From a virus: a stretch of 5,750 nucleotides of DNA. The position numbers and the translations under genes are program-made. Each line of letters starts with the position of its first letter. Within the stretch, counting starts at the first letter, position 1. The stretch is taken from IMG/VR virus record IMGVR_UViG_3300045988_006665, positions 1-5,750 of that record; one strand, written 5' to 3'. Below, piece after piece: positions 56 through 5,473 of the stretch. Under the pieces are notes generated by a model. That model worked only from the letters and a program-made list of their open reading frames with translations. It had not been told where the DNA came from and did no database searches.

Positions 56-1492
56 GACGATAGACCGTGGATGCCTACAGAGACATACCAAGTACCAAAA
101 ATCAAAATTGTGGGAAATCCAAACGAAGAAAACCAGCCAGAAGCATACAAAGGGCCAAAAACGCAAAGCATCCTGGACTATATGGGAGTACCGACACACC
201 TAAACGAAAAAGGAAAAGGCAACGATATTGAAATCAATGCACTGCCAGTAAGAGCATACATCAGAATATGGAACGAATTCTTCAGAGACCAAAACGTAGA
301 TAATCCGGCATGGTATCAAAAAGGAGATGAAGAAGTAAAATACTTCGACAGAGGAGACAACGGATACGTAGGTGAACAAACCGGAAAAGAATACTTAGAC
401 GCATACACAGGCGGGCCATGTCTCCCGGTCTCAAAATTCCACGACTACTTCACATCATGTCTGCCGTATCCTCAGCGCGGACCGGAAGTAAACATTCCTA
501 TCCAGCTGGAAGGAACAGCACCAGTTTATGCAGGCGACAAAACAAACGCAAAAACAAGTTCAGAAGAAAGCTGGAACAATCTAGGCCTATACAACGGACT
601 GGACAGCAGTTGGAGCAACGCAAAAAACGGCATCCGACTGGAAAACAATGGAACATTAATTACAGAAAGTACAAGCGGAATGCCAAACAATCAAATCTCA
701 CTCCACACAAGCCTGTACGAAGCATCCACAGTAAACATCACAATCAACCAGCTCCGGCAAGCCTTTGCGGTTCAGCACTATTACGAAGCACTGGCAAGAG
801 GTGGCAGCCGATACCGTGAGCAGGTGCGAGCACTGTTCGGCGTAAGCATCAGCGACAAAACCGTACAGATACCGGAGTATCTGGGTGGTGGACGCTATCA
901 CATCAACATTAACCAAATTGTGCAGACGTCTGGACAGCAGACCGAAGCAGACACGCCTATCGGCGAAACCGGTGCAATGTCTGTCACACCTATCAACGAA
1001 AGCTCCTTTACAAAGAGCTTTGAGGAACACGGGTTTATTATCGGTGTTATGTGTGTTCGACATAATCACAGCTATCAGCAAGGCCTAGAGCGATTCTGGA
1101 GCCGTAGCGACAGACTGGACTACTATTTCCCGCAGTTTGCAAATCTGGGCGAACAGCCTGTCAAGAAAAAGGAAATCATGCTAACCGGAACGCCAGTGGA
1201 TGACGAAACCTTCGGATACCAGGAAGCATGGGCAGACTATCGCATGAAACCGAACCGTGTAAGCGGTAAAATGCGGAGCAATGCGGAGGGGACGCTCGAC
1301 TTCTGGCACTATGCGGACAACTACGAAAGCATACCGACACTGAGCCAAGAGTGGATGAACGAAGGCAAATCCGAAATTGCACGAACGTTGATTGTTCAAG
1401 ATGAACCCCAATTTTTCGGCGCAATCCGGGTGATGAACAAGACAACTCGTTGTATGCCGCTGTACAGCGTACCGGGTCTGGAAAAGCTGTAA
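2..1492 (+). CDS. VP1: Major capsid protein VP1 (phiX174 F-like), C-terminal portion; the 5' part is at 5460-5695 across the circular junction
   Basis: The frame is open from base 2 (FCPNRILWDNFKRFMGEA...) to TAA at 1490-1492, so the ATG at 44 in the ORF track is internal. It is in frame with the 5460 ORF after subtracting 5695. The joined product is 575 aa, which fits a Microviridae capsid protein. The N-terminal motifs are listed under the 5460 feature. Confidence 0.93.
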   Translation, partial: FCPNRILWDNFKRFMGEADDRPWMPTETYQVPKIKIVGNPNEENQPEAYKGPKTQSILDYMGVPTHLNEKGKGNDIEINALPVRAYIRIWNEFFRDQNVDNPAWYQKGDEEVKYFDRGDNGYVGEQTGKEYLDAYTGGPCLPVSKFHDYFTSCLPYPQRGPEVNIPIQLEGTAPVYAGDKTNAKTSSEESWNNLGLYNGLDSSWSNAKNGIRLENNGTLITESTSGMPNNQISLHTSLYEASTVNITINQLRQAFAVQHYYEALARGGSRYREQVRALFGVSISDKTVQIPEYLGGGRYHININQIVQTSGQQTEADTPIGETGAMSVTPINESSFTKSFEEHGFIIGVMCVRHNHSYQQGLERFWSRSDRLDYYFPQFANLGEQPVKKKEIMLTGTPVDDETFGYQEAWADYRMKPNRVSGKMRSNAEGTLDFWHYADNYESIPTLSQEWMNEGKSEIARTLIVQDEPQFFGAIRVMNKTTRCMPLYSVPGLEKL

Positions 1493-1495
1493 AGA

Positions 1496-1502
1496 AAGGA
1501 GG
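1496..1502 (+). promoter_or_regulatory. Shine-Dalgarno AAGGAGG serving VP2, separated from the ATG by 29 nt that contain a hairpin
   Basis: A perfect AAGGAGG lies 3 nt after the VP1 stop. No other purine-rich SD lies between it and ATG 1532, and no alternative in-frame start exists between TAA 1490 and 1532. Confidence 0.55.
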
Positions 1503-1503
1503 A

Positions 1504-1530
1504 AGCCCGCAGAAATGCGGGCTATTTTAT
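1504..1530 (+). terminator. GC-rich hairpin with GAAA tetraloop plus T-rich tail between VP1 and VP2 (probable leaky terminator or attenuator)
   Basis: agcccgca (1504-1511), gaaa, tgcgggct (1516-1523) form a perfect 8-bp stem, followed by attttat. It begins 12 nt after the VP1 stop. Confidence 0.5.
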
Positions 1531-1531
1531 A

Positions 1532-2347
1532 ATGGCAGGATTAGGAACAATGCTGGCAAAAGCTGGCACGTGGCTTGCAAGTCATCCAGAAGTAGTAACG
1601 ACAGGAATGTCACTCATTGGCAACGGCCTATCAAGCTACTATGGACAGAAAAGCGAAAACCAGAGCCAAGGAAGCAACATGAGCCAAAGCCAAGGCGGAG
1701 GACAAAGCGCATCCATGAGCGAGGGCGGCACAAACGACAAACAAATCATGGACTACCTCAACAGATACTATCAGTGGCAAGGAGGACAAAATAGTTTTCA
1801 AAGTAAGACAAACCGCGAAAATATGCTCATGCAAATGGGATACAACACGTTGGGGGCAATCCAACAAGGAATATACAACCACATCGAGCAAAACGCAGCC
1901 ATGTCTTACAACAGCGCAGAAGCACTGGCAAACCGCAATTTCCAAGAAAGAATGAGCAGCACAGCATACCAAAGAGCGGTAGAAGATATGCGAAAAGCAG
2001 GACTTAATCCAATTTTAGCATACGCACAAGGTGGCGCAAGCACGCCGGGCGGCTCAGGCGCAACAATCACAGGCGCAAGTATGGGAATGCCAGCATCCAG
2101 TGCTTTAGGAGTATCAGCATTAAGTGGCACAGTGCCAAACAGCTACTTTAGCCGATCCGAAAGTAAATCACAATGGTACCAGCTAGCAGAAGCCGTGGGC
2201 AGTCAAATGAGCACAGGCTATAGCAGTCCGGTACAGCTAACCGAAGACCTTCTCAAAACCTATAAACAGATGGAAAATACAGAAAAAACCGTACCATTCA
2301 AAGCAGGTGGAGGAAAATTCCACACAGGAGGAGGAAGAAAAAAATGA
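1532..2347 (+). CDS. VP2: Minor capsid / DNA pilot protein VP2 (functional analogue of phiX174 H)
   Basis: The 271-aa ORF sits directly after VP1. It contains the segment NSAEALANRNFQERMSSTAYQRAVEDMRKAGLNPILAY, which matches the conserved FQE-MS-TAYQR...AGLNP-L core I recognise from gokushovirus VP2 proteins. The flanks are low-complexity and rich in Gly, Ser and Gln. The stop overlaps the VP4 start (ATGA). Confidence 0.85.
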   Translation: MAGLGTMLAKAGTWLASHPEVVTTGMSLIGNGLSSYYGQKSENQSQGSNMSQSQGGGQSASMSEGGTNDKQIMDYLNRYYQWQGGQNSFQSKTNRENMLMQMGYNTLGAIQQGIYNHIEQNAAMSYNSAEALANRNFQERMSSTAYQRAVEDMRKAGLNPILAYAQGGASTPGGSGATITGASMGMPASSALGVSALSGTVPNSYFSRSESKSQWYQLAEAVGSQMSTGYSSPVQLTEDLLKTYKQMENTEKTVPFKAGGGKFHTGGGRKK

Positions 2348-3363
2348 GTTGTTACAAGCCGCTAATCAGGCTGTACAACCCAGATAACAAAGAAGTGAGC
2401 GGGCGGGTATATTCACTCGCCCGCTTTTCTCAGTTAGCCGGGAAACAGCTAAAGTATGAAGATTTGATGTATAATCCGAAAGTTATGTTGATACCGTGCG
2501 GACAATGCATCGGGTGCAGAATAAGACAACGCGAAGACTGGACGACACGCATAGAGTTAGAAGCAAGAGATTACCCAAAAGAACAAGTATGGTTTATCAC
2601 ACTAACTTATGACGATGACCATGTGCCTGGCATGATAGTAAAGACAGGCGAAATCATGCGAAAAGTGCAGTACACATGGAAGCCGGGAGAGAAGCGCCCA
2701 GACAGCGTACAAATTCTGCTGTATGAGGATATTCAAAAATTCTTAAAGCGTCTCAGAAAGGCTTACAAGGGCAAATTACGCTATTTTGTAGCAGGTGAGT
2801 ACGGAGAACAAACAGCGAGACCGCACTATCACATGATACTGTATGGATGGGAACCGACAGACCTAGAAAATTTATACAAAATCCATCACAACGGATACTA
2901 TAACAGCAAATGGCTGGAAAGCCTATGGGGCATGGGTCAAATACAGATAGCGCAAGCCGTTCCAGAAACCTATAGATATGTTGCAGGATACGTTACAAAA
3001 AAAATGTACGAAATAAACGGAAAGAAAGCCAATGCGTACTACGAATTGGGACAAACAAAGCCTTTTGCTTGCATGAGCCTAAAACCGGGTCTTGGAGACC
3101 ATTACTATAAAGAACACAAAGCAAAAATCTGGCGGCAAGGGTACATTCAATGCACCAACGGAAAAAAAGCGCAGATTCCAAGATACTACGAAAAGCAGAT
3201 GGAAGTAGAAAACCCGGAAAGACTATGGAAAATCAAGCAAAACAGGCAAAAAGACGCAATCAATCAGAAGAGACTACAATTAGAGAGCCAAGACTATAAG
3301 ACAGTCCTAGAGACAAAAGAACGTGTAACCAAAAAACAAACGAAAAAGCGTGGTATTTTATAA
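2344..3363 (+). CDS. VP4: Replication initiation protein VP4 (HUH rolling-circle endonuclease, phiX174 A-like)
   Basis: The 339-aa ORF carries CGQCIGCR (Cys cluster typical of microvirus VP4), FITLTY (RCR motif 1), RPHYHMILYG (HUH motif 2) and YRYVAGYVTKK (Tyr motif 3). The SD AGGAGGAGGA lies at 2327-2336. Confidence 0.95.
   Translation: MSCYKPLIRLYNPDNKEVSGRVYSLARFSQLAGKQLKYEDLMYNPKVMLIPCGQCIGCRIRQREDWTTRIELEARDYPKEQVWFITLTYDDDHVPGMIVKTGEIMRKVQYTWKPGEKRPDSVQILLYEDIQKFLKRLRKAYKGKLRYFVAGEYGEQTARPHYHMILYGWEPTDLENLYKIHHNGYYNSKWLESLWGMGQIQIAQAVPETYRYVAGYVTKKMYEINGKKANAYYELGQTKPFACMSLKPGLGDHYYKEHKAKIWRQGYIQCTNGKKAQIPRYYEKQMEVENPERLWKIKQNRQKDAINQKRLQLESQDYKTVLETKERVTKKQTKKRGIL
2397..2428 (+). other. 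Intragenic stem-loop in the 5' end of VP4 with an AT-rich loop and a short T tail
   Basis: gagcgggcgggt (2397-2408) pairs with actcgcccgctt (2415-2426). The core agcgggcg/cgcccgct is a perfect 8 bp and extends to 12 bp with two G-T wobbles. The loop is atattc, followed by tt. Confidence 0.45.
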
Positions 3364-3375
3364 TTGGTGTCACCT

Positions 3376-3416
3376 AGCCCAGTACCTATCAAGTAAAGTA
3401 CTGGGCTTTATCATTC
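3376..3416 (+). terminator. Stem-loop 13 nt after the VP4 stop (probable terminator ending the long operon)
   Basis: agcccagtac (3376-3385) and gtactgggct (3398-3407) form a perfect 10-bp stem with a 12-nt loop, followed by tttatcatt, which is only a moderate T tract. Confidence 0.55.
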
Positions 3417-3420
3417 TAAT

Positions 3421-3470
3421 CGCGCACACACGTACACGCGAAAAGTACACGCGCACGCGTGCGCACGTAT
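3421..3470. repeat. Two tracts of strictly alternating pyrimidine/purine with GCGCAC/GTACACGCG repeats and a 14-bp perfect palindrome
   Basis: 3421-3440 (20 nt) and 3446-3470 (25 nt) alternate Y-R without a break, separated by aaaag. GTACACGCG occurs at 3432-3440 and 3445-3453. GCGCAC occurs at 3422, 3451 and 3461. GCGCACGCGTGCGC at 3451-3464 is self-complementary. Confidence 0.85.
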
Positions 3471-3481
3471 TATAATATAAC

Positions 3482-3502
3482 TTGTTGTAGTAGTAGTAGT
3501 AG
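3482..3502. repeat. Trinucleotide microsatellite (TTG)2(TAG)5
   Basis: ttgttgtagtagtagtagtag was read directly, immediately upstream of the GTTGAAA array. Confidence 0.9.
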
Positions 3503-3505
3503 AGT

Positions 3506-3671
3506 ATGTTGAAAAGTTGAAAAGTATAATTTTAAAACGTTAGAGCGTTAAAAATAAACAAAAAACAATGTTGAAAGATTTGTTGAAAACTTGTTGAATT
3601 GTTGAAAGACTCTGTTGTGCTAAAGTTTAACAATGTTGAAATGTTGAAAACTATGTTGAAAATGTTGAAAA
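3506..3671 (+). repeat. Array of ten direct, same-orientation (T)GTTGAAA iteron-like repeats in three clusters
   Basis: The GTTGAA core starts at 3508, 3516, 3570, 3582, 3593 (GTTGAAT variant), 3601, 3635, 3643, 3655 and 3664. Nine of the ten are preceded by T. Six read ATGTTGAAA and three read TTGTTGAA. Spacing within clusters is 8-12 nt. Degenerate copies lie at 3484 (gttgta) and 3614 (gttgtg). Confidence 0.9.
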
Positions 3672-3686
3672 GTCAATAGAAGCAAT

Positions 3687-3756
3687 CCGGAATCAGCCGG
3701 GAAAGCTAAGGCCGCGCTTCGCTGAAAGTTGCGCCGCGTAGCGCGCAACAGCGGCC
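3687..3756 (+). other. GC-rich island of nested inverted repeats (candidate ssDNA structural signal)
   Basis: ccgg-aatcag-ccgg lies at 3687-3700. An outer stem pairs ggccgc (3710-3715) with gcggcc (3751-3756). It encloses an inner hairpin of gttgcgc (3728-3734), an 8-nt loop, and gcgcaac (3743-3749). The island is embedded in otherwise A/T-rich non-coding sequence. Confidence 0.6.
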
Positions 3757-3940
3757 ATCTAATGAAAAATTCTTCAAAAATTCGAAGATGACGGAAGCAT
3801 AACAACAGTGCTAAAACTCAGTGCAGAGCCAAAATATGCAAAACAAAGAGCAGAAGATTACGCAAACAGGCATCCAGGACTGTACAGCCTGCAAAGAACA
3901 GAAACGGTAAAGATGTACTTTACCAAAAAAGAATGAACCA

Positions 3941-3970
3941 AAGACGGAGTTGACAGCTCCGTCTTATTTT
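3941..3970 (+). terminator. Intrinsic-terminator-like hairpin with T tract, overlapping the downstream promoter
   Basis: aagacggag (3941-3949), a 7-nt loop ttgacag, and ctccgtctt (3957-3965) form a perfect 9-bp stem, followed by atttt. Confidence 0.7.
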
Positions 3971-3978
3971 GATATAAT
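3950..3978 (+). promoter_or_regulatory. Consensus sigma70-type promoter TTGACA-17 nt-TATAAT
   Basis: TTGACA lies at 3950-3955, the 17-nt spacer at 3956-3972, and TATAAT at 3973-3978. It is followed by the SD AGGAGAGGAAGGA (3987-3999) and ATG 4006. Confidence 0.75.
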
Positions 3979-4005
3979 CCGAAATAGGAGAGGAAGGAAA
4001 CAGCC

Positions 4006-4389
4006 ATGAAAAACATCAAGTTCATCAAAGCAGATTACGGCAACCTGAGCACCCACTTCAAAGCAAAAGAGTTCCAGTGCAAAGATAAAAGCGAATATCT
4101 GTTAATCGCAACGGAGCTAATTGAAACACTGGAAAAAATCAGAAACCACTTCAACGCTCCGGTCATCATCAACAGCGGATACAGAACGCCAAGCTGGAAC
4201 AGCAAAGTAAACGGAGCGCCAAACTCCTACCACTGCAAAGGAATGGCCGCCGATATCGTAGTAAAAGGGTACAGCAGTAGAGAAATTGCAAAGTACGCAG
4301 ATAAAATCATGGAGCAAGGCGGCGTAATCAGATACACAAACTTCACACACATTGATGTACGAGAAGAACGATACAGAAAGGGGGTGTAA
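4006..4389 (+). CDS. Zn-dependent cell-wall peptidase, Peptidase_M15_3 / VanY-like family (endolysin-type)
   Basis: The 127-aa ORF has SGYRTP, an H-x6-D motif in SYHCKGMAAD (H76, D83) and THIDVR (H115, D117). This is the zinc-ligand pattern I recognise for M15A/M15_3 peptidases. There is a strong SD. The N-terminus has no signal peptide or hydrophobic segment. Confidence 0.88.
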   Translation: MKNIKFIKADYGNLSTHFKAKEFQCKDKSEYLLIATELIETLEKIRNHFNAPVIINSGYRTPSWNSKVNGAPNSYHCKGMAADIVVKGYSSREIAKYADKIMEQGGVIRYTNFTHIDVREERYRKGV

Positions 4390-4392
4390 CCT

Positions 4393-4497
4393 ATGGCATT
4401 AATCAAAGTCAAGGATCTGCGAGAGGCAATTCAGCTCATCAAGACTGTGCTGGAAAAACTTGACGAAATCTATCACGTCCTGAAGGAAAAGGAGTAA
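4393..4497 (+). CDS. Hypothetical 34-aa helical protein (below the ORF-track length cutoff)
   Basis: The product is MALIKVKDLREAIQLIKTVLEKLDEIYHVLKEKE. An AAGGGGG motif lies 8 nt upstream (4378-4384). The start lies 3 nt after the peptidase stop, and its own stop lies 3 nt before the next ATG. This tight packing is the only other support. Confidence 0.4.
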   Translation: MALIKVKDLREAIQLIKTVLEKLDEIYHVLKEKE

Positions 4498-4500
4498 AAC

Positions 4501-4746
4501 ATGATGAACAAGACATGGAATGTACGGGACCAGACCGAAGAAAACCTCAGGCTAGAGGCAGAAAGGCTATACAAACAGATAGAAGCAGGATACAAGCTGA
4601 TAAAAAAAGTATCCAAGCTGGAAGATGCCGAAAAGCTCATTAATCGAATCTGGATAATGAAGAAATGGGCTAACGACATCGAAATGGAACTAATCAGAAG
4701 GGAGTACACAAATGAAGCACAGGCAGCGGATGCCGGTACGCACTGA
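4501..4746 (+). CDS. Hypothetical 81-aa protein, charged and helical or coiled-coil-like
   Basis: An ATGATG start sits 6 nt after AAGGAG (4489-4494). I recognise no motif and see no hydrophobic segment. Confidence 0.6.
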   Translation: MMNKTWNVRDQTEENLRLEAERLYKQIEAGYKLIKKVSKLEDAEKLINRIWIMKKWANDIEMELIRREYTNEAQAADAGTH

Positions 4747-4831
4747 CAAGAGAATGTTCAACGTAACGGCACGAAAGACGAAGAGTATCAACCTCAGCCA
4801 AAAACCCATGCGGGGCGGCATCAGACTGTAA
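4712..4831 (+). CDS. Small basic protein, gokushovirus ORF8-like (putative DNA-binding/packaging protein, analogue of phiX174 J)
   Basis: The product is MKHRQRMPVRTDKRMFNVTARKTKSINLSQKPMRGGIRL (39 aa, below the ORF-track cutoff). It is rich in Arg and Lys and ends in the PMRGGIRL motif I recall from small microvirus basic proteins. AAGGGAG (4698-4704) lies 7 nt upstream. The ORF overlaps the last 35 nt of the 81-aa ORF in another frame. Confidence 0.65.
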   Translation: MKHRQRMPVRTDKRMFNVTARKTKSINLSQKPMRGGIRL

Positions 4832-4842
4832 AGGAGAAAAAC

Positions 4843-5085
4843 ATGATTCACGGATACTATGGAATCTATGACAGCGTAGCAAAGTGCTACTGCTACATCG
4901 GAGAAAGCAAGAGCAACGAAACCTTTGCACGAATGTGCAGTATCATGGCAAAGGACGAAAAAACGTTCCTGGGCCAGTCACCCGAAGACTACAAAGGCTA
5001 CCATATCGCAAACTTCAACGATGAAACTGGAAGCTTCGACAGCATCGAACCGGAAAAGGTCTGGGAGGGCAAACCGAATGAATAA
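4843..5085 (+). CDS. VP5: VP5-like non-structural protein of gokushoviruses
   Basis: The 80-aa ORF has AAGGAG (4831-4836) 6 nt upstream. YGIYDSVAKCY...ARMCS...SPEDYKGYHIANFNDETGSF fits the pattern Y-IYD-KA...A-R-F...PEDY...G-FD-ETG that I recall for this family. The family name is from memory, not from a search. Confidence 0.65.
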   Translation: MIHGYYGIYDSVAKCYCYIGESKSNETFARMCSIMAKDEKTFLGQSPEDYKGYHIANFNDETGSFDSIEPEKVWEGKPNE

Positions 5086-5473
5086 AAGATATGAAGAGGG
5101 GCGAAAGCCCTTCTTTTCAAATCCGGGTGAAAAACTGCGTAAACAGTACGTCTGGGGAAAAGACGAAAAAGAGAATAAAAAGCTGATTGAGACCGAACCA
5201 ATCGACATTCAGGCCGAAATTGAAAGCTATGCAGACGAATGCGACATCAAAAACATTGTCCGCAAAGCCAGTTTTGACCCTGAGTTCGCAAAAAGTCTAG
5301 TAGACAGCGCAAAAACAGACGAAACGATGGATATAACCGAATGGCCTACCAACATTCACGAGTATCACGCCATGATGGCAACGGCACAGGCCAAAGCAAT
5401 GGAACTGCAGAGGATGCAGGAAAAGGCCGCAAACGAGACAAAGAAGCAGGAGGAAAACAATGAACCGGAATAA
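5078..5473 (+). CDS. VP3: Internal scaffolding protein VP3
   Basis: I chose the start at ATG 5078 (MNKRYEEGRKPFF...). GGGAGGG (5063-5069) lies 8 nt upstream, and the ATG overlaps the VP5 stop (ATGAATAA). The product is 131 aa. ESYADECDIKNIVRKA matches the conserved ECDIN-I core I recall for gokushovirus scaffold proteins. The C-terminus is acidic, and the gene sits immediately upstream of VP1. Confidence 0.78.
   Translation: MNKRYEEGRKPFFSNPGEKLRKQYVWGKDEKENKKLIETEPIDIQAEIESYADECDIKNIVRKASFDPEFAKSLVDSAKTDETMDITEWPTNIHEYHAMMATAQAKAMELQRMQEKAANETKKQEENNEPE
5094..5117 (+). other. Hairpin with GAAA tetraloop just inside VP3, 9 nt after the VP5 stop
   Basis: aagaggggc (5094-5102), gaaa, gcccttctt (5107-5115) form a 9-bp stem with one G-T wobble, followed by tt. 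The architecture matches the 1504 hairpin. Confidence 0.45.

What the first reader, a model, noticed from the sequence alone, without database searches (positions are those of the whole stretch)
3941..4389. Endolysin-type M15 peptidase as the first gene behind a perfect consensus promoter, with no holin-like partner
ORF 4006-4389 shows the SGYR, H-x6-D (H76, D83) and H-I-D (H115) zinc-site pattern of Peptidase_M15_3/VanY-like muralytic enzymes. Model microviruses lyse with the overprinted MraY inhibitor E (phiX174), and no lysis gene is established for gokushoviruses. As far as I recall, M15 peptidase ORFs have been noted only sporadically in metagenomic Microviridae and never characterised. 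In this genome the peptidase has no signal peptide, SAR or TM segment. None of the neighbouring + strand ORFs (34 aa, 81 aa, 39 aa) has a hydrophobic stretch, so how the enzyme would reach the murein is unexplained. It is also the promoter-proximal gene of the whole genome, which is odd timing for a lysis enzyme. Alternatives include a role in entry or virion function, or reliance on a host export route.
Basis: partly seen in the sequence, partly recalled or inferred. Interest (0 to 1): 0.72.

Follow-up and report, generated by a model that had tools for sequence, protein, structure and literature searches.

The report
Cell-wall peptidase in gut gokushovirus
A small single-stranded DNA gut phage carries a wall-cutting enzyme borrowed from tailed phages, placed just behind its main promoter and with no membrane-hole partner; the gene is real, but it has been described in these viruses since 2012 and its route to the cell wall is still unknown.

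Summary
ORF 4006-4389 is a complete single-domain Peptidase_M15_3 (MEROPS M15A) zinc murein peptidase. All catalytic motifs are intact and it is under purifying selection. It lies 27 nt downstream of the only 12/12 TTGACA-17-TGnTATAAT promoter in a circular gokushovirus genome of about 5.7 kb. No + strand ORF, annotated or overprinted, has a conserved membrane segment in this genome or in 45 relatives, so the "no holin, no E-like gene" statement is sound.

It is not new. Roux et al. 2012 reported M15_3 peptidases in human-gut Gokushovirinae, proposed an endolysin role and noted the link to Faecalibacterium. GenBank relatives are annotated "peptidase M15", and hundreds of near-identical proteins sit on microvirus-sized contigs.

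The most likely role is an accessory endolysin taken from tailed phages, where it sits next to a holin. How it crosses the membrane here is unresolved. The neighbouring 34-aa and 81-aa genes are backbone genes, also present in relatives without the peptidase, and not peptidase partners. Promoter-proximal placement is weak evidence about timing. Entry-enzyme and cytoplasmic-substrate readings are not excluded.

Verdict: already known. Interest about 0.3.

The parts
3941..3965 (+). Terminator-like hairpin (AAGACGGAGTT-GAC-AGCTCCGTCTT) followed by a T-rich run. Its apical part contains the -35 hexamer.
   Evidence: 11 pairs, T-run. (-15.5 kcal/mol, z = -5.2, 0 of 200 shuffles fold as well). In relatives the stem sequence differs but pairing is kept, while TTGACA is kept.
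3950..3978 (+). Sigma-70/sigma-A type promoter: -35 TTGACA 3950-3955, 17-nt spacer, extended -10 TG (3970-3971) and TATAAT 3973-3978.
   Evidence: 12/12 plus TG, unique in the window. A promoter of at least 11/12 lies within 400 nt upstream of the peptidase in 32 of 46 genomes, and within 120 nt in 21 of 46.
3986..3998 (+). Purine-rich Shine-Dalgarno region AGGAGAGGAAGGA, 7 nt before the ATG.
   Evidence: Read directly. Every gene of the genome has a GGAG/GAGG-type site upstream.
4006..4389 (+). Peptidase_M15_3 (MEROPS M15A) murein peptidase, 127 aa, single domain, no export signal.
   Evidence: dN/dS is 0.12 against 26 relatives.
4393..4497 (+). 34-aa heptad-repeat peptide gene. It is a conserved backbone gene and has no TM segment.
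   Evidence: dN/dS 0.03. Present in gokushoviruses without the peptidase, MG945157 and KT264798. KD maximum 0.70.
4501..4746 (+). 81-aa helical protein gene. It is a conserved backbone gene and has no TM segment.
   Evidence: dN/dS 0.16. Homologues in 27 phage records, all gokushovirus or Microviridae. KD maximum 0.02.
1504..1523 (+). Terminator-like hairpin after VP1. It is a likely attenuator within the single transcription unit that starts at the peptidase.
   Evidence: (-16.7 kcal/mol, z = -4.0).

Best explanation
The ORF encodes an active-type, zinc-dependent, single-domain M15A (Peptidase_M15_3) peptidoglycan peptidase. A lineage of gut gokushoviruses acquired it from the endolysin gene of a tailed phage. 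It was inserted between the long non-coding region and the conserved 34-aa gene, directly behind the main promoter.

Inferred transcription: the enzyme is made from the genome-length transcript that starts at about 3985. That transcript is attenuated after VP1 and ends at the hairpin that overlaps the promoter.

Inferred function: the enzyme accumulates in the cytoplasm and cuts peptide stems or cross-links of the murein at the end of infection, promoting or accelerating release of progeny. It therefore acts as an accessory endolysin.

It has no holin. Access to the wall must depend on a membrane lesion or export step provided by something else: an unidentified function of the gokushovirus backbone, or the host.

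Shown: family membership, intact active site, purifying selection, promoter and terminator anatomy, and absence of any conserved membrane protein. Inferred: the lytic role, and dependence on a second, unknown factor.
For: Family and active site:
- Pfam M15_3 E=3.3e-23, full-length match. PHROG 894 endolysin 6e-38.
- The motifs SxHxxGxAxD (S74-D83) and F113-x-H115 with D117 and R60 are all invariant. They correspond to the zinc triad and key residues described for the tested endolysin LysPM1.
- The best solved relative is 1LBU (E=1e-7). The model superposes on viral M15A peptidases at TM about 0.7.

Functional constraint:
- dN/dS 0.12.

Homologues in tailed phages are endolysins in lysis cassettes:
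- L047 has holin-like and spanin-like neighbours.
- The gut phage MT835826 has a 146-aa copy, 50% identical, followed by a 68-aa two-TM protein.
- Faecalibacterium phage FP_oengus carries an annotated endolysin homologue.
- M15_3 endolysins degrade murein in vitro.

Prior proposal: Roux 2012 made the same suggestion for gut gokushoviruses.

Accessory status:
- Related gokushoviruses keep the 34-aa gene, the 39-aa gene and VP5 without the peptidase.
- MT135277 carries only the C-terminal half of the peptidase.
Against: - No holin, signal peptide or SAR segment, and no overprinted membrane ORF, in 46 genomes. The step that brings enzyme and substrate together is therefore missing.
- No experiment exists for any gokushovirus copy.
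- The host is unknown. There are no prophages in 185,579 species genomes. The only indication is a published CRISPR-based prediction of Clostridiales.
- Relatives without the peptidase show it is not strictly required, so its contribution could lie elsewhere, for example in entry.
- The structure model is only of moderate confidence (pLDDT 69.5).
Confidence: 0.55

Rival explanations
1. Entry enzyme. The peptidase is carried in or on virions, or released with them, and opens the murein of the next host cell so that a tail-less 25-30 nm particle can reach the membrane. This would matter most if the host is a thick-walled monoderm of the Clostridiales.
For: - Gut gokushoviruses are predicted to infect Clostridiales.
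- The promoter with extended -10 and the strong Shine-Dalgarno sites on every gene fit Firmicutes-type expression signals.
- In the gut tailed phage MT835826 the same domain is also the C-terminal part of a 680-aa protein, which looks like a virion-associated hydrolase.
- Traces of the hydrolase Gp7 were detected in virions of the microvirus Ebor.
- The absence of a holin is not a problem under this reading.
Against: - The protein is free-standing and not fused to VP1 or VP2.
- The nearest free-standing homologues are endolysins next to holins.
- A T=1 capsid has little spare internal volume (established knowledge).
- Clade members without the peptidase or with a truncated copy exist.
Confidence: 0.2
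2. Enzymatic single-gene lysis from inside the cell. The cytoplasmic peptidase hydrolyses murein precursors (UDP-MurNAc-pentapeptide or lipid I/II), as the M15 relatives VanX and VanXY do. This starves wall synthesis and the growing cell lyses without any holin. It would be functionally analogous to phiX174 E, but catalytic.
For: - No export signal and no holin in 46 genomes.
- The M15/LAS clan includes cytoplasmic enzymes that act on D-Ala-D-Ala termini of precursors. VanXY and VanY structures are among the fold and profile hits.
- Small phages typically lyse by blocking precursor synthesis (established knowledge; restated).
Against: - The tested M15_3 endolysins ST79 and LysPM1 were studied as purified recombinant proteins. 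ST79 was produced in E. coli BL21 with 4 h of induction and no lysis was reported.
- The same domain coexists with holins in tailed phages.
- No direct evidence supports this reading.
Confidence: 0.05
3. An overlooked membrane or E-like lysis protein does the lysis, and the peptidase is a redundant passenger.
For: - Relatives without the peptidase must lyse by some other means.
- Two + strand ORFs with hydrophobic stretches exist in the window: 885-1088, overprinted in VP1, and 3350-3475.
Against: - ORF 885-1088 is open and hydrophobic in only 6 of 46 genomes.
- ORF 3350-3475 overlaps a conserved hairpin. Downstream of it there are large insertions and indels that are not multiples of three.
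- Alternative + frames of all genes show no conserved hydrophobic open stretch.
- The peptidase is under purifying selection, so it is not a passenger.
Confidence: 0.1

Closest known systems
M15_3 peptidases of human-gut Gokushovirinae described by Roux et al. 2012 (PMC3394797), and GenBank gokushoviruses annotated 'peptidase M15' (e.g. KX513877, KX513868, KT264792)
   Same: Same protein family. Same genome position, after VP4 and the non-coding region and before VP5/VP3. Same habitat. Identity is 46-72% to GenBank copies and 91-92% to metagenomic proteins named 'MAG TPA: peptidase [Microviridae sp.]'.
   Different: Nothing essential differs. The window has a perfect 12/12 promoter embedded in a terminator hairpin, which I did not find described in the papers read.
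Single-domain Peptidase_M15_3 (M15A) endolysins of tailed phages: LysPM1 (Proteus phage Homer), ST79 peptidase M15A, and homologues in Vibrio, Proteus, Klebsiella and Faecalibacterium phages
   Same: Similar size (113-146 aa). Same motifs: SxHxxGxAxD, (W/F)xH, and the conserved Arg and Asp. Identity is 42-50%.
   Different: The tailed-phage genes sit in holin-endolysin(-spanin) cassettes. The microvirus copy has no membrane partner.
Streptomyces albus G zinc D-Ala-D-Ala carboxypeptidase (PDB 1LBU), type enzyme of M15A
   Same: Best solved relative by profile (E=1e-7) and by fold (probability 0.99, TMq 0.49). Shares the zinc-ligand motif.
   Different: It is a secreted 213-aa two-domain enzyme. 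Only the catalytic core aligns, and the bond specificity of the phage enzyme is unknown.
phiX174 protein E and other single-gene lysis proteins
   Same: A small ssDNA phage that must lyse with minimal coding capacity.
   Different: E is an overprinted membrane protein that inhibits MraY. No such ORF exists here, and the gene here encodes a soluble hydrolase.
Ebor Gp7 (Tainavirinae microvirus) peptidoglycan hydrolase, and the M15 metallopeptidases of Occultatumvirinae
   Same: Microviruses with a horizontally acquired wall hydrolase that is presumed to act in lysis.
   Different: They belong to different microvirus subfamilies and infect Alphaproteobacteria. Gp7 is a different protein (146 aa; best HHpred hit 6SSC as reported). 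Ebor also encodes a predicted membrane protein, Gp1.

Membership tests
Peptidase_M15_3 / MEROPS M15A (LAS-type zinc peptidase) | Significant profile match across the whole domain, above the curated cut-off | tested here: met
   PF08291: 82.3 bits against a cut-off of 23.2, E=3.3e-23, profile positions 2-108 of 108.
Peptidase_M15_3 / MEROPS M15A (LAS-type zinc peptidase) | Zinc ligands H-x6-D within SxHxxGxAxD, plus a distal His | tested here: met
   S74-Y-H76-C-K-G79-M-A81-A-D83 and H115. All are invariant in 16 sequences down to 35% identity. The motif is as defined for LysPM1 and ST79.
Peptidase_M15_3 / MEROPS M15A (LAS-type zinc peptidase) | (W/F)xH motif, a nearby acidic residue, and the substrate-carboxylate Arg | tested here: met
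   F113-T-H115-I-D117 and R60 in SGYR. R60, H115 and D117 are invariant. They correspond to R47, F102/H104 and D106 of LysPM1.
Peptidase_M15_3 / MEROPS M15A (LAS-type zinc peptidase) | Hedgehog/DD-peptidase fold | tested here: inconclusive
   The AF2 model has pLDDT 69.5 and pTM 0.70. In the PDB search the best E-value is only 1e-2, though the hits are VanXY, 1LBU and Hedgehog. In BFVD, TM is 0.59-0.74 to viral M15A peptidases with E down to 7e-16.
Peptidase_M15_3 / MEROPS M15A (LAS-type zinc peptidase) | Zinc-dependent hydrolysis of murein peptides | not testable with these tools
   Needs a zymogram or muropeptide analysis.
Canonical holin-endolysin lysis cassette | A small membrane protein (holin) encoded with the endolysin | tested here: not met
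   No + strand ORF of 25 aa or more with a KD(19) of 1.5 or above is conserved in 46 genomes. Alternative frames are negative. Tailed-phage homologues do have one.
Secreted or SAR endolysins | N-terminal signal peptide or signal-anchor-release segment | tested here: not met
   The N-terminus MKNIKFIKADYGNLSTHFKAKEF is polar and the KD maximum is 0.26. Longer database versions only add Lys/Arg-rich read-through of the ribosome-binding region.
Single-gene lysis (phiX174 E-like) | Small, usually overprinted, membrane protein | tested here: not met
   The two candidates in the window were rejected (for 3350-3475; 6 of 46 genomes for 885-1088).
Virion-associated peptidoglycan hydrolase | Hydrolase domain fused to a structural protein, or present in the virion | tested here: inconclusive
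   It is not fused; it is a free-standing 127-aa ORF. Presence in the virion cannot be tested here.
Gokushovirinae (genome context) | VP1 (Phage_F), VP2 pilot, VP3 Chlamy_scaf scaffold, VP4 Rep, VP5 and a small Arg-rich protein, all on one strand of a circular genome of about 4.5-6 kb | tested here: met
   55-nt terminal redundancy. The nearest records are gokushoviruses.

The most novel reading that the evidence does not exclude
The peptidase needs no holin because it never has to leave the cytoplasm. It hydrolyses murein precursors (UDP-MurNAc-pentapeptide or lipid-linked intermediates), as VanX- and VanXY-type M15 enzymes do. That would make it the first catalytic single-gene lysis system of a small phage. 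A less radical alternative is a wall-opening entry enzyme that lets a tail-less microvirus infect thick-walled Clostridiales; I put that at about 0.2.
Probability: 0.05. Interest if true: 0.8.

Novelty: already known. Interest (0 to 1): 0.3.

Why it matters
How gokushoviruses lyse their hosts is still unknown, as is whether the abundant gut lineages really infect Gram-positive Clostridiales. This gene is the only recognisable wall-active function in these genomes, so it gives a concrete experimental handle. One can knock it out or mutate it in a synthetic genome, test the enzyme on candidate host walls, and look for it in virions. The gene and the endolysin hypothesis have been in the literature since 2012, so the window adds another member and some regulatory anatomy, not a new kind of system.

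Tried and rejected
- ORF 3350-3475 (41 aa, hydrophobic stretch) as a hidden holin: rejected. It overlaps a conserved, covarying hairpin after VP4. Relatives have large insertions and indels that are not multiples of three just downstream. It has no Shine-Dalgarno site.
- ORF 885-1088, overprinted in VP1 (67 aa, hydrophobic C-terminus): rejected. It is open and hydrophobic in only 6 of 46 genomes.
- Antisense ORFs: hydrophobic open stretches are common on the minus strand. The codon-aligned antisense frame of VP5 is open in most genomes. I attribute this to codon usage (few TTA, CTA and TCA codons) and to T-rich antisense sequence. Microvirus genes are on the + strand, so I did not pursue it.
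- The 34-aa and 81-aa genes as peptidase-specific partners: rejected. The 34-aa gene is also present in genomes without the peptidase.
- N-terminally longer database versions of the peptidase as carriers of signal peptides: rejected. The extensions are Lys/Arg-rich read-through.
- Host identification through prophages: two scans of 185,579 species genomes gave nothing, except one complete microvirus contig (51% VP4 identity) binned into a Prevotella MAG, which is not evidence of a host.
- Structure: the alignment available was shallow (81-92% identity) and gave only pLDDT 69.5. PDB fold hits were therefore weak.
- Rfam: no family reached its gathering score anywhere in the window.

Full report
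**1. What the window is**

The first 55 nt are repeated at the end of the window, so this is a circular genome of 5,695 nt. All recognisable genes are on the + strand:

| Gene | Coordinates | Evidence |
|---|---|---|
| VP1 major capsid | 5460, wrapping round to 1492 | Phage_F, E=5.5e-100 |
| VP2 pilot | 1532-2347 | PHROG 8742 |
| VP4 replication initiator | 2344-3363 | |
| Non-coding stretch | 3364-4005 | about 640 nt |
| Peptidase | 4006-4389 | see section 2 |
| 34-aa ORF | 4393-4497 | |
| 81-aa ORF | 4501-4746 | |
| 39-aa Arg-rich ORF | 4712-4831 | PHROG 10695 |
| VP5 | 4843-5085 | Phage_ORF5 |
| VP3 scaffold | 5078-5473 | Chlamy_scaf |

This is a gokushovirus. The nearest GenBank records are gut gokushoviruses from pigs, humans and monkeys at 77-81% nucleotide identity over parts of the genome.

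**2. Check of the observation**

- The ORF matches Pfam Peptidase_M15_3 at E=3.3e-23 across the whole profile, and PHROG 894 'endolysin' at 6e-38.
- In an alignment that reaches tailed-phage homologues at 35-42% identity, the invariant positions include S57, R60, S74, H76, G79, A81, A82, D83, H115 and D117.
- These form the SxHxxGxAxD motif, the (W/F)xH motif (F113-T-H115), the acidic residue and the arginine described for the tested M15_3 endolysins LysPM1 and ST79 (PMC13461873 and PMC5025407).
- The best solved relative by profile is 1LBU, the type enzyme of M15A (E=1e-7).
- The structure prediction had only close homologues to work with and reached pLDDT 69.5. It still superposes on predicted viral M15A peptidases at TM 0.6-0.74. 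In the PDB its weak top hits are VanXY, 1LBU and Hedgehog-type folds.
- The gene is under purifying selection: median dN/dS is 0.12 against 26 relatives.

**3. The promoter**

TTGACA-17-TATAAT with TG at -15/-14 scores 12/12 and is the only site above 9/12 in the window. The count of weaker sites is what shuffled sequence gives.

The promoter sits inside a terminator-like hairpin at 3941-3965 (-15.5 kcal/mol, z = -5.2). The -35 hexamer lies in the top of the hairpin and the T-run forms the spacer. In relatives the stem sequence changes while pairing, TTGACA and the -10 element are kept: GACGGAG/CTCCGTC here, ACCGGAG/CTCCGGT in L004, CCGGGG/CCCCGG in L016, CCCGG/CCGGG in L031 and GAACCC/GGGTTC in L003.

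A promoter of at least 11/12 lies within 400 nt upstream of the peptidase in 32 of 46 genomes, and within 120 nt in 21. Several relatives have two in tandem, with a conserved 42-aa ORF between them. The peptidase is therefore the first or second gene behind the main promoter region in most of the clade, though not always the first.

I infer a single genome-length transcription unit. It would be attenuated by the hairpin after VP1 (1504-1523) and closed by the hairpin that overlaps the promoter.

**4. No membrane partner**

- In the window, no annotated + strand protein has a 19-residue Kyte-Doolittle mean above 1.1.
- I fetched 44 microvirus-sized IMG/VR contigs whose peptidase is 58-91% identical, plus two GenBank genomes. 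The gene order from peptidase through the 34-aa, 81-aa and 39-aa ORFs, VP5, VP3, VP1 and VP2 to VP4 is conserved.
- Across these 46 genomes no hydrophobic + strand ORF is conserved.
- The alternative + frames of every gene contain no conserved hydrophobic open stretch.
- Two candidates in the window were examined and rejected. ORF 3350-3475 lies on a conserved covarying hairpin, and relatives have frame-breaking indels just downstream. ORF 885-1088, overprinted in VP1, is open and hydrophobic in only 6 of 46 genomes.
- Database versions of the peptidase with longer N-termini only add Lys/Arg-rich read-through, not signal peptides.

**5. What the neighbours are**

The 34-aa product has a clean 3-4 heptad pattern (L9, I13, I16, L20, L23, Y27, L30; read directly from the sequence) and is extremely constrained (dN/dS 0.03). 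The 81-aa product is helical and polar.

The 34-aa gene also occurs in gokushoviruses that lack the peptidase: MG945157 and KT264798 have VP4 about 45% identical and give no tblastn hit to the peptidase. The 81-aa gene is confined to gokushovirus records and is missing from some genomes that carry the peptidase. Neither gene is linked to the peptidase.

MT135277, a close relative with VP4 83% identical, has only the C-terminal 66 residues of the peptidase. The peptidase is therefore an accessory insertion, and the backbone must have some lysis route of its own that nobody has identified.

**6. Where the gene came from, and the likely host**

In tailed phages the homologues lie in lysis cassettes. 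In L047 the homologue is flanked by TM proteins and a lipoprotein-like ORF. In the human-gut phage MT835826 a 146-aa copy, 50% identical, is followed by a 68-aa two-TM protein. In the same phage the domain also forms the C-terminus of a 680-aa protein, so the family is used both for lysis and, apparently, as a virion-associated hydrolase.

Roux et al. 2012 found the gokushovirus copies closest to Faecalibacterium and related Clostridiales genes. Shah et al. 2023 predict Clostridiales as hosts of gut gokushoviruses. The extended -10 promoter and the GGAG/GAGG Shine-Dalgarno site before every gene fit that prediction and argue against Bacteroidota, but this is inference.

Two scans of one genome per species (GTDB) found no prophage. 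The only hit was a complete microvirus contig binned into a Prevotella MAG.

**7. Mechanism**

My best explanation (0.55) is an accessory endolysin that cuts murein peptides at the end of infection, with access to the wall provided by an unknown backbone or host function.

The rivals are:
- An entry or trans-acting wall-opening enzyme (0.2). This is attractive if the host is a monoderm.
- An overlooked lysis protein, with the peptidase redundant (0.1). Purifying selection argues against this.
- Cytoplasmic hydrolysis of murein precursors, as VanX and VanXY do (0.05). The routine study of M15_3 endolysins as recombinant proteins argues against this; ST79 was produced in E. coli BL21 and no lysis was reported.

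The 'odd timing' argument carries little weight. In phiX174 the genes are not temporally switched and the lysis gene lies in the most strongly transcribed unit (established knowledge).

**8. Novelty**

Roux et al. 2012 (PMC3394797) reported M15_3 peptidases in 5 gut Gokushovirinae and 6 Alpavirinae. They showed horizontal acquisition, noted the holin neighbours in the donors, and proposed a lysis role.

GenBank records carry the annotation 'peptidase M15'. The protein collection holds 640 clusters at 90% identity, and the top 120 are all at least 81% identical and mostly on contigs of no more than 6 kb. Some are named 'MAG TPA: peptidase [Microviridae sp.]'.

M15 peptidases are also reported in Occultatumvirinae, and a wall hydrolase of the microvirus Ebor has been verified experimentally.

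The finding is real, but already known. What remains open is the route to the murein and the choice between a lysis and an entry role. That question is also long-standing and cannot be settled by computation.

Noticed in passing
window 3941-3978: Composite terminator-promoter. The -35 TTGACA lies in the top of a stable hairpin, the T-run of the terminator forms the 17-nt spacer, and TGaTATAAT follows. In relatives the stem covaries while both hexamers are kept. On a circular genome with one main promoter, this would end the genome-length transcript just where the next one starts.
   Followed up: partly
window 3376-3407 (with flanks 3366-3412): Perfect 10-bp hairpin AGCCCAGTAC/GTACTGGGCT with a 12-nt loop CTATCAAGTAAA, right after the VP4 stop. 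The loop and the upstream GTGTCACCTAG are nearly invariant across the clade. The stem shows compensatory changes: GCCAAGTAC/GTACTTGGC, GCCTAGTAC/GTACTAGGC and GTCCAGTAC/GTACTGGAC. It is a candidate replication origin or nick site, or a terminator.
   Followed up: partly
window 3421-3469: Alternating purine-pyrimidine (CG/CA)n tract that includes the 14-nt palindrome GCGCACGCGTGCGC. Relatives have tracts of the same kind with different sequence. Function unknown.
   Followed up: no
window 3508-3670: Nine copies of GTTGAAA, all on the + strand within 163 nt, against 1.05 expected in the whole window; 0 of 200 shuffles reach 9. The arrangement is iteron-like. The block 3366-3670 is about 80-85% identical in gokushoviruses whose flanking genes no longer match at the DNA level.
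   Followed up: partly
window 3808-3936: A 42-aa ORF with a GTG start lies upstream of the promoter. It is conserved in about 15 relatives (58-86% identity, dN/dS about 0.13 from few pairs). In several relatives it lies between two tandem promoters or abuts the peptidase start directly. It is probably a real small gene of unknown function.
   Followed up: partly
window 1498-1534: The only Shine-Dalgarno sequence for VP2 (AGGAGG at about 1499-1504) is 28 nt from the ATG. The VP1 terminator hairpin lies between them, and folding it would bring the site close to the start codon. This looks like a split ribosome-binding site that couples attenuation and translation.
   Followed up: no
window 4393-4497: The 34-aa heptad-repeat peptide is the most constrained gene measured (dN/dS 0.03). 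It is conserved at about 50% identity even in a distant gokushovirus clade without the peptidase. It is unannotated in nearly all GenBank records.
   Followed up: partly
L054 (MT135277.1) 108-308: A close relative carries only the C-terminal 66 residues of the peptidase, without the SGYR half. This is either natural decay of an accessory gene or an assembly artefact.
   Followed up: no
L056 (MT835826.1) 399-3096: A gut tailed phage has two M15_3 copies. One is the C-terminal domain of a 680-aa protein. The other is a free 146-aa endolysin followed by a 68-aa two-TM, holin-like protein.
   Followed up: partly
window 4843-5085, minus strand: The codon-aligned antisense frame of VP5 is open over almost the whole gene in most of 45 genomes, and it is hydrophobic. 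This is probably a codon-usage effect, but I did not test it further.
   Followed up: no
window 3700-3765: GC-rich segment with nested inverted repeats (GGCCGC...GCGGCC and TTGCGC...GCGCAA). A similar GCCGCGCTTCGCGC motif lies just upstream of the peptidase in L009-L011, L014 and L017.
   Followed up: no
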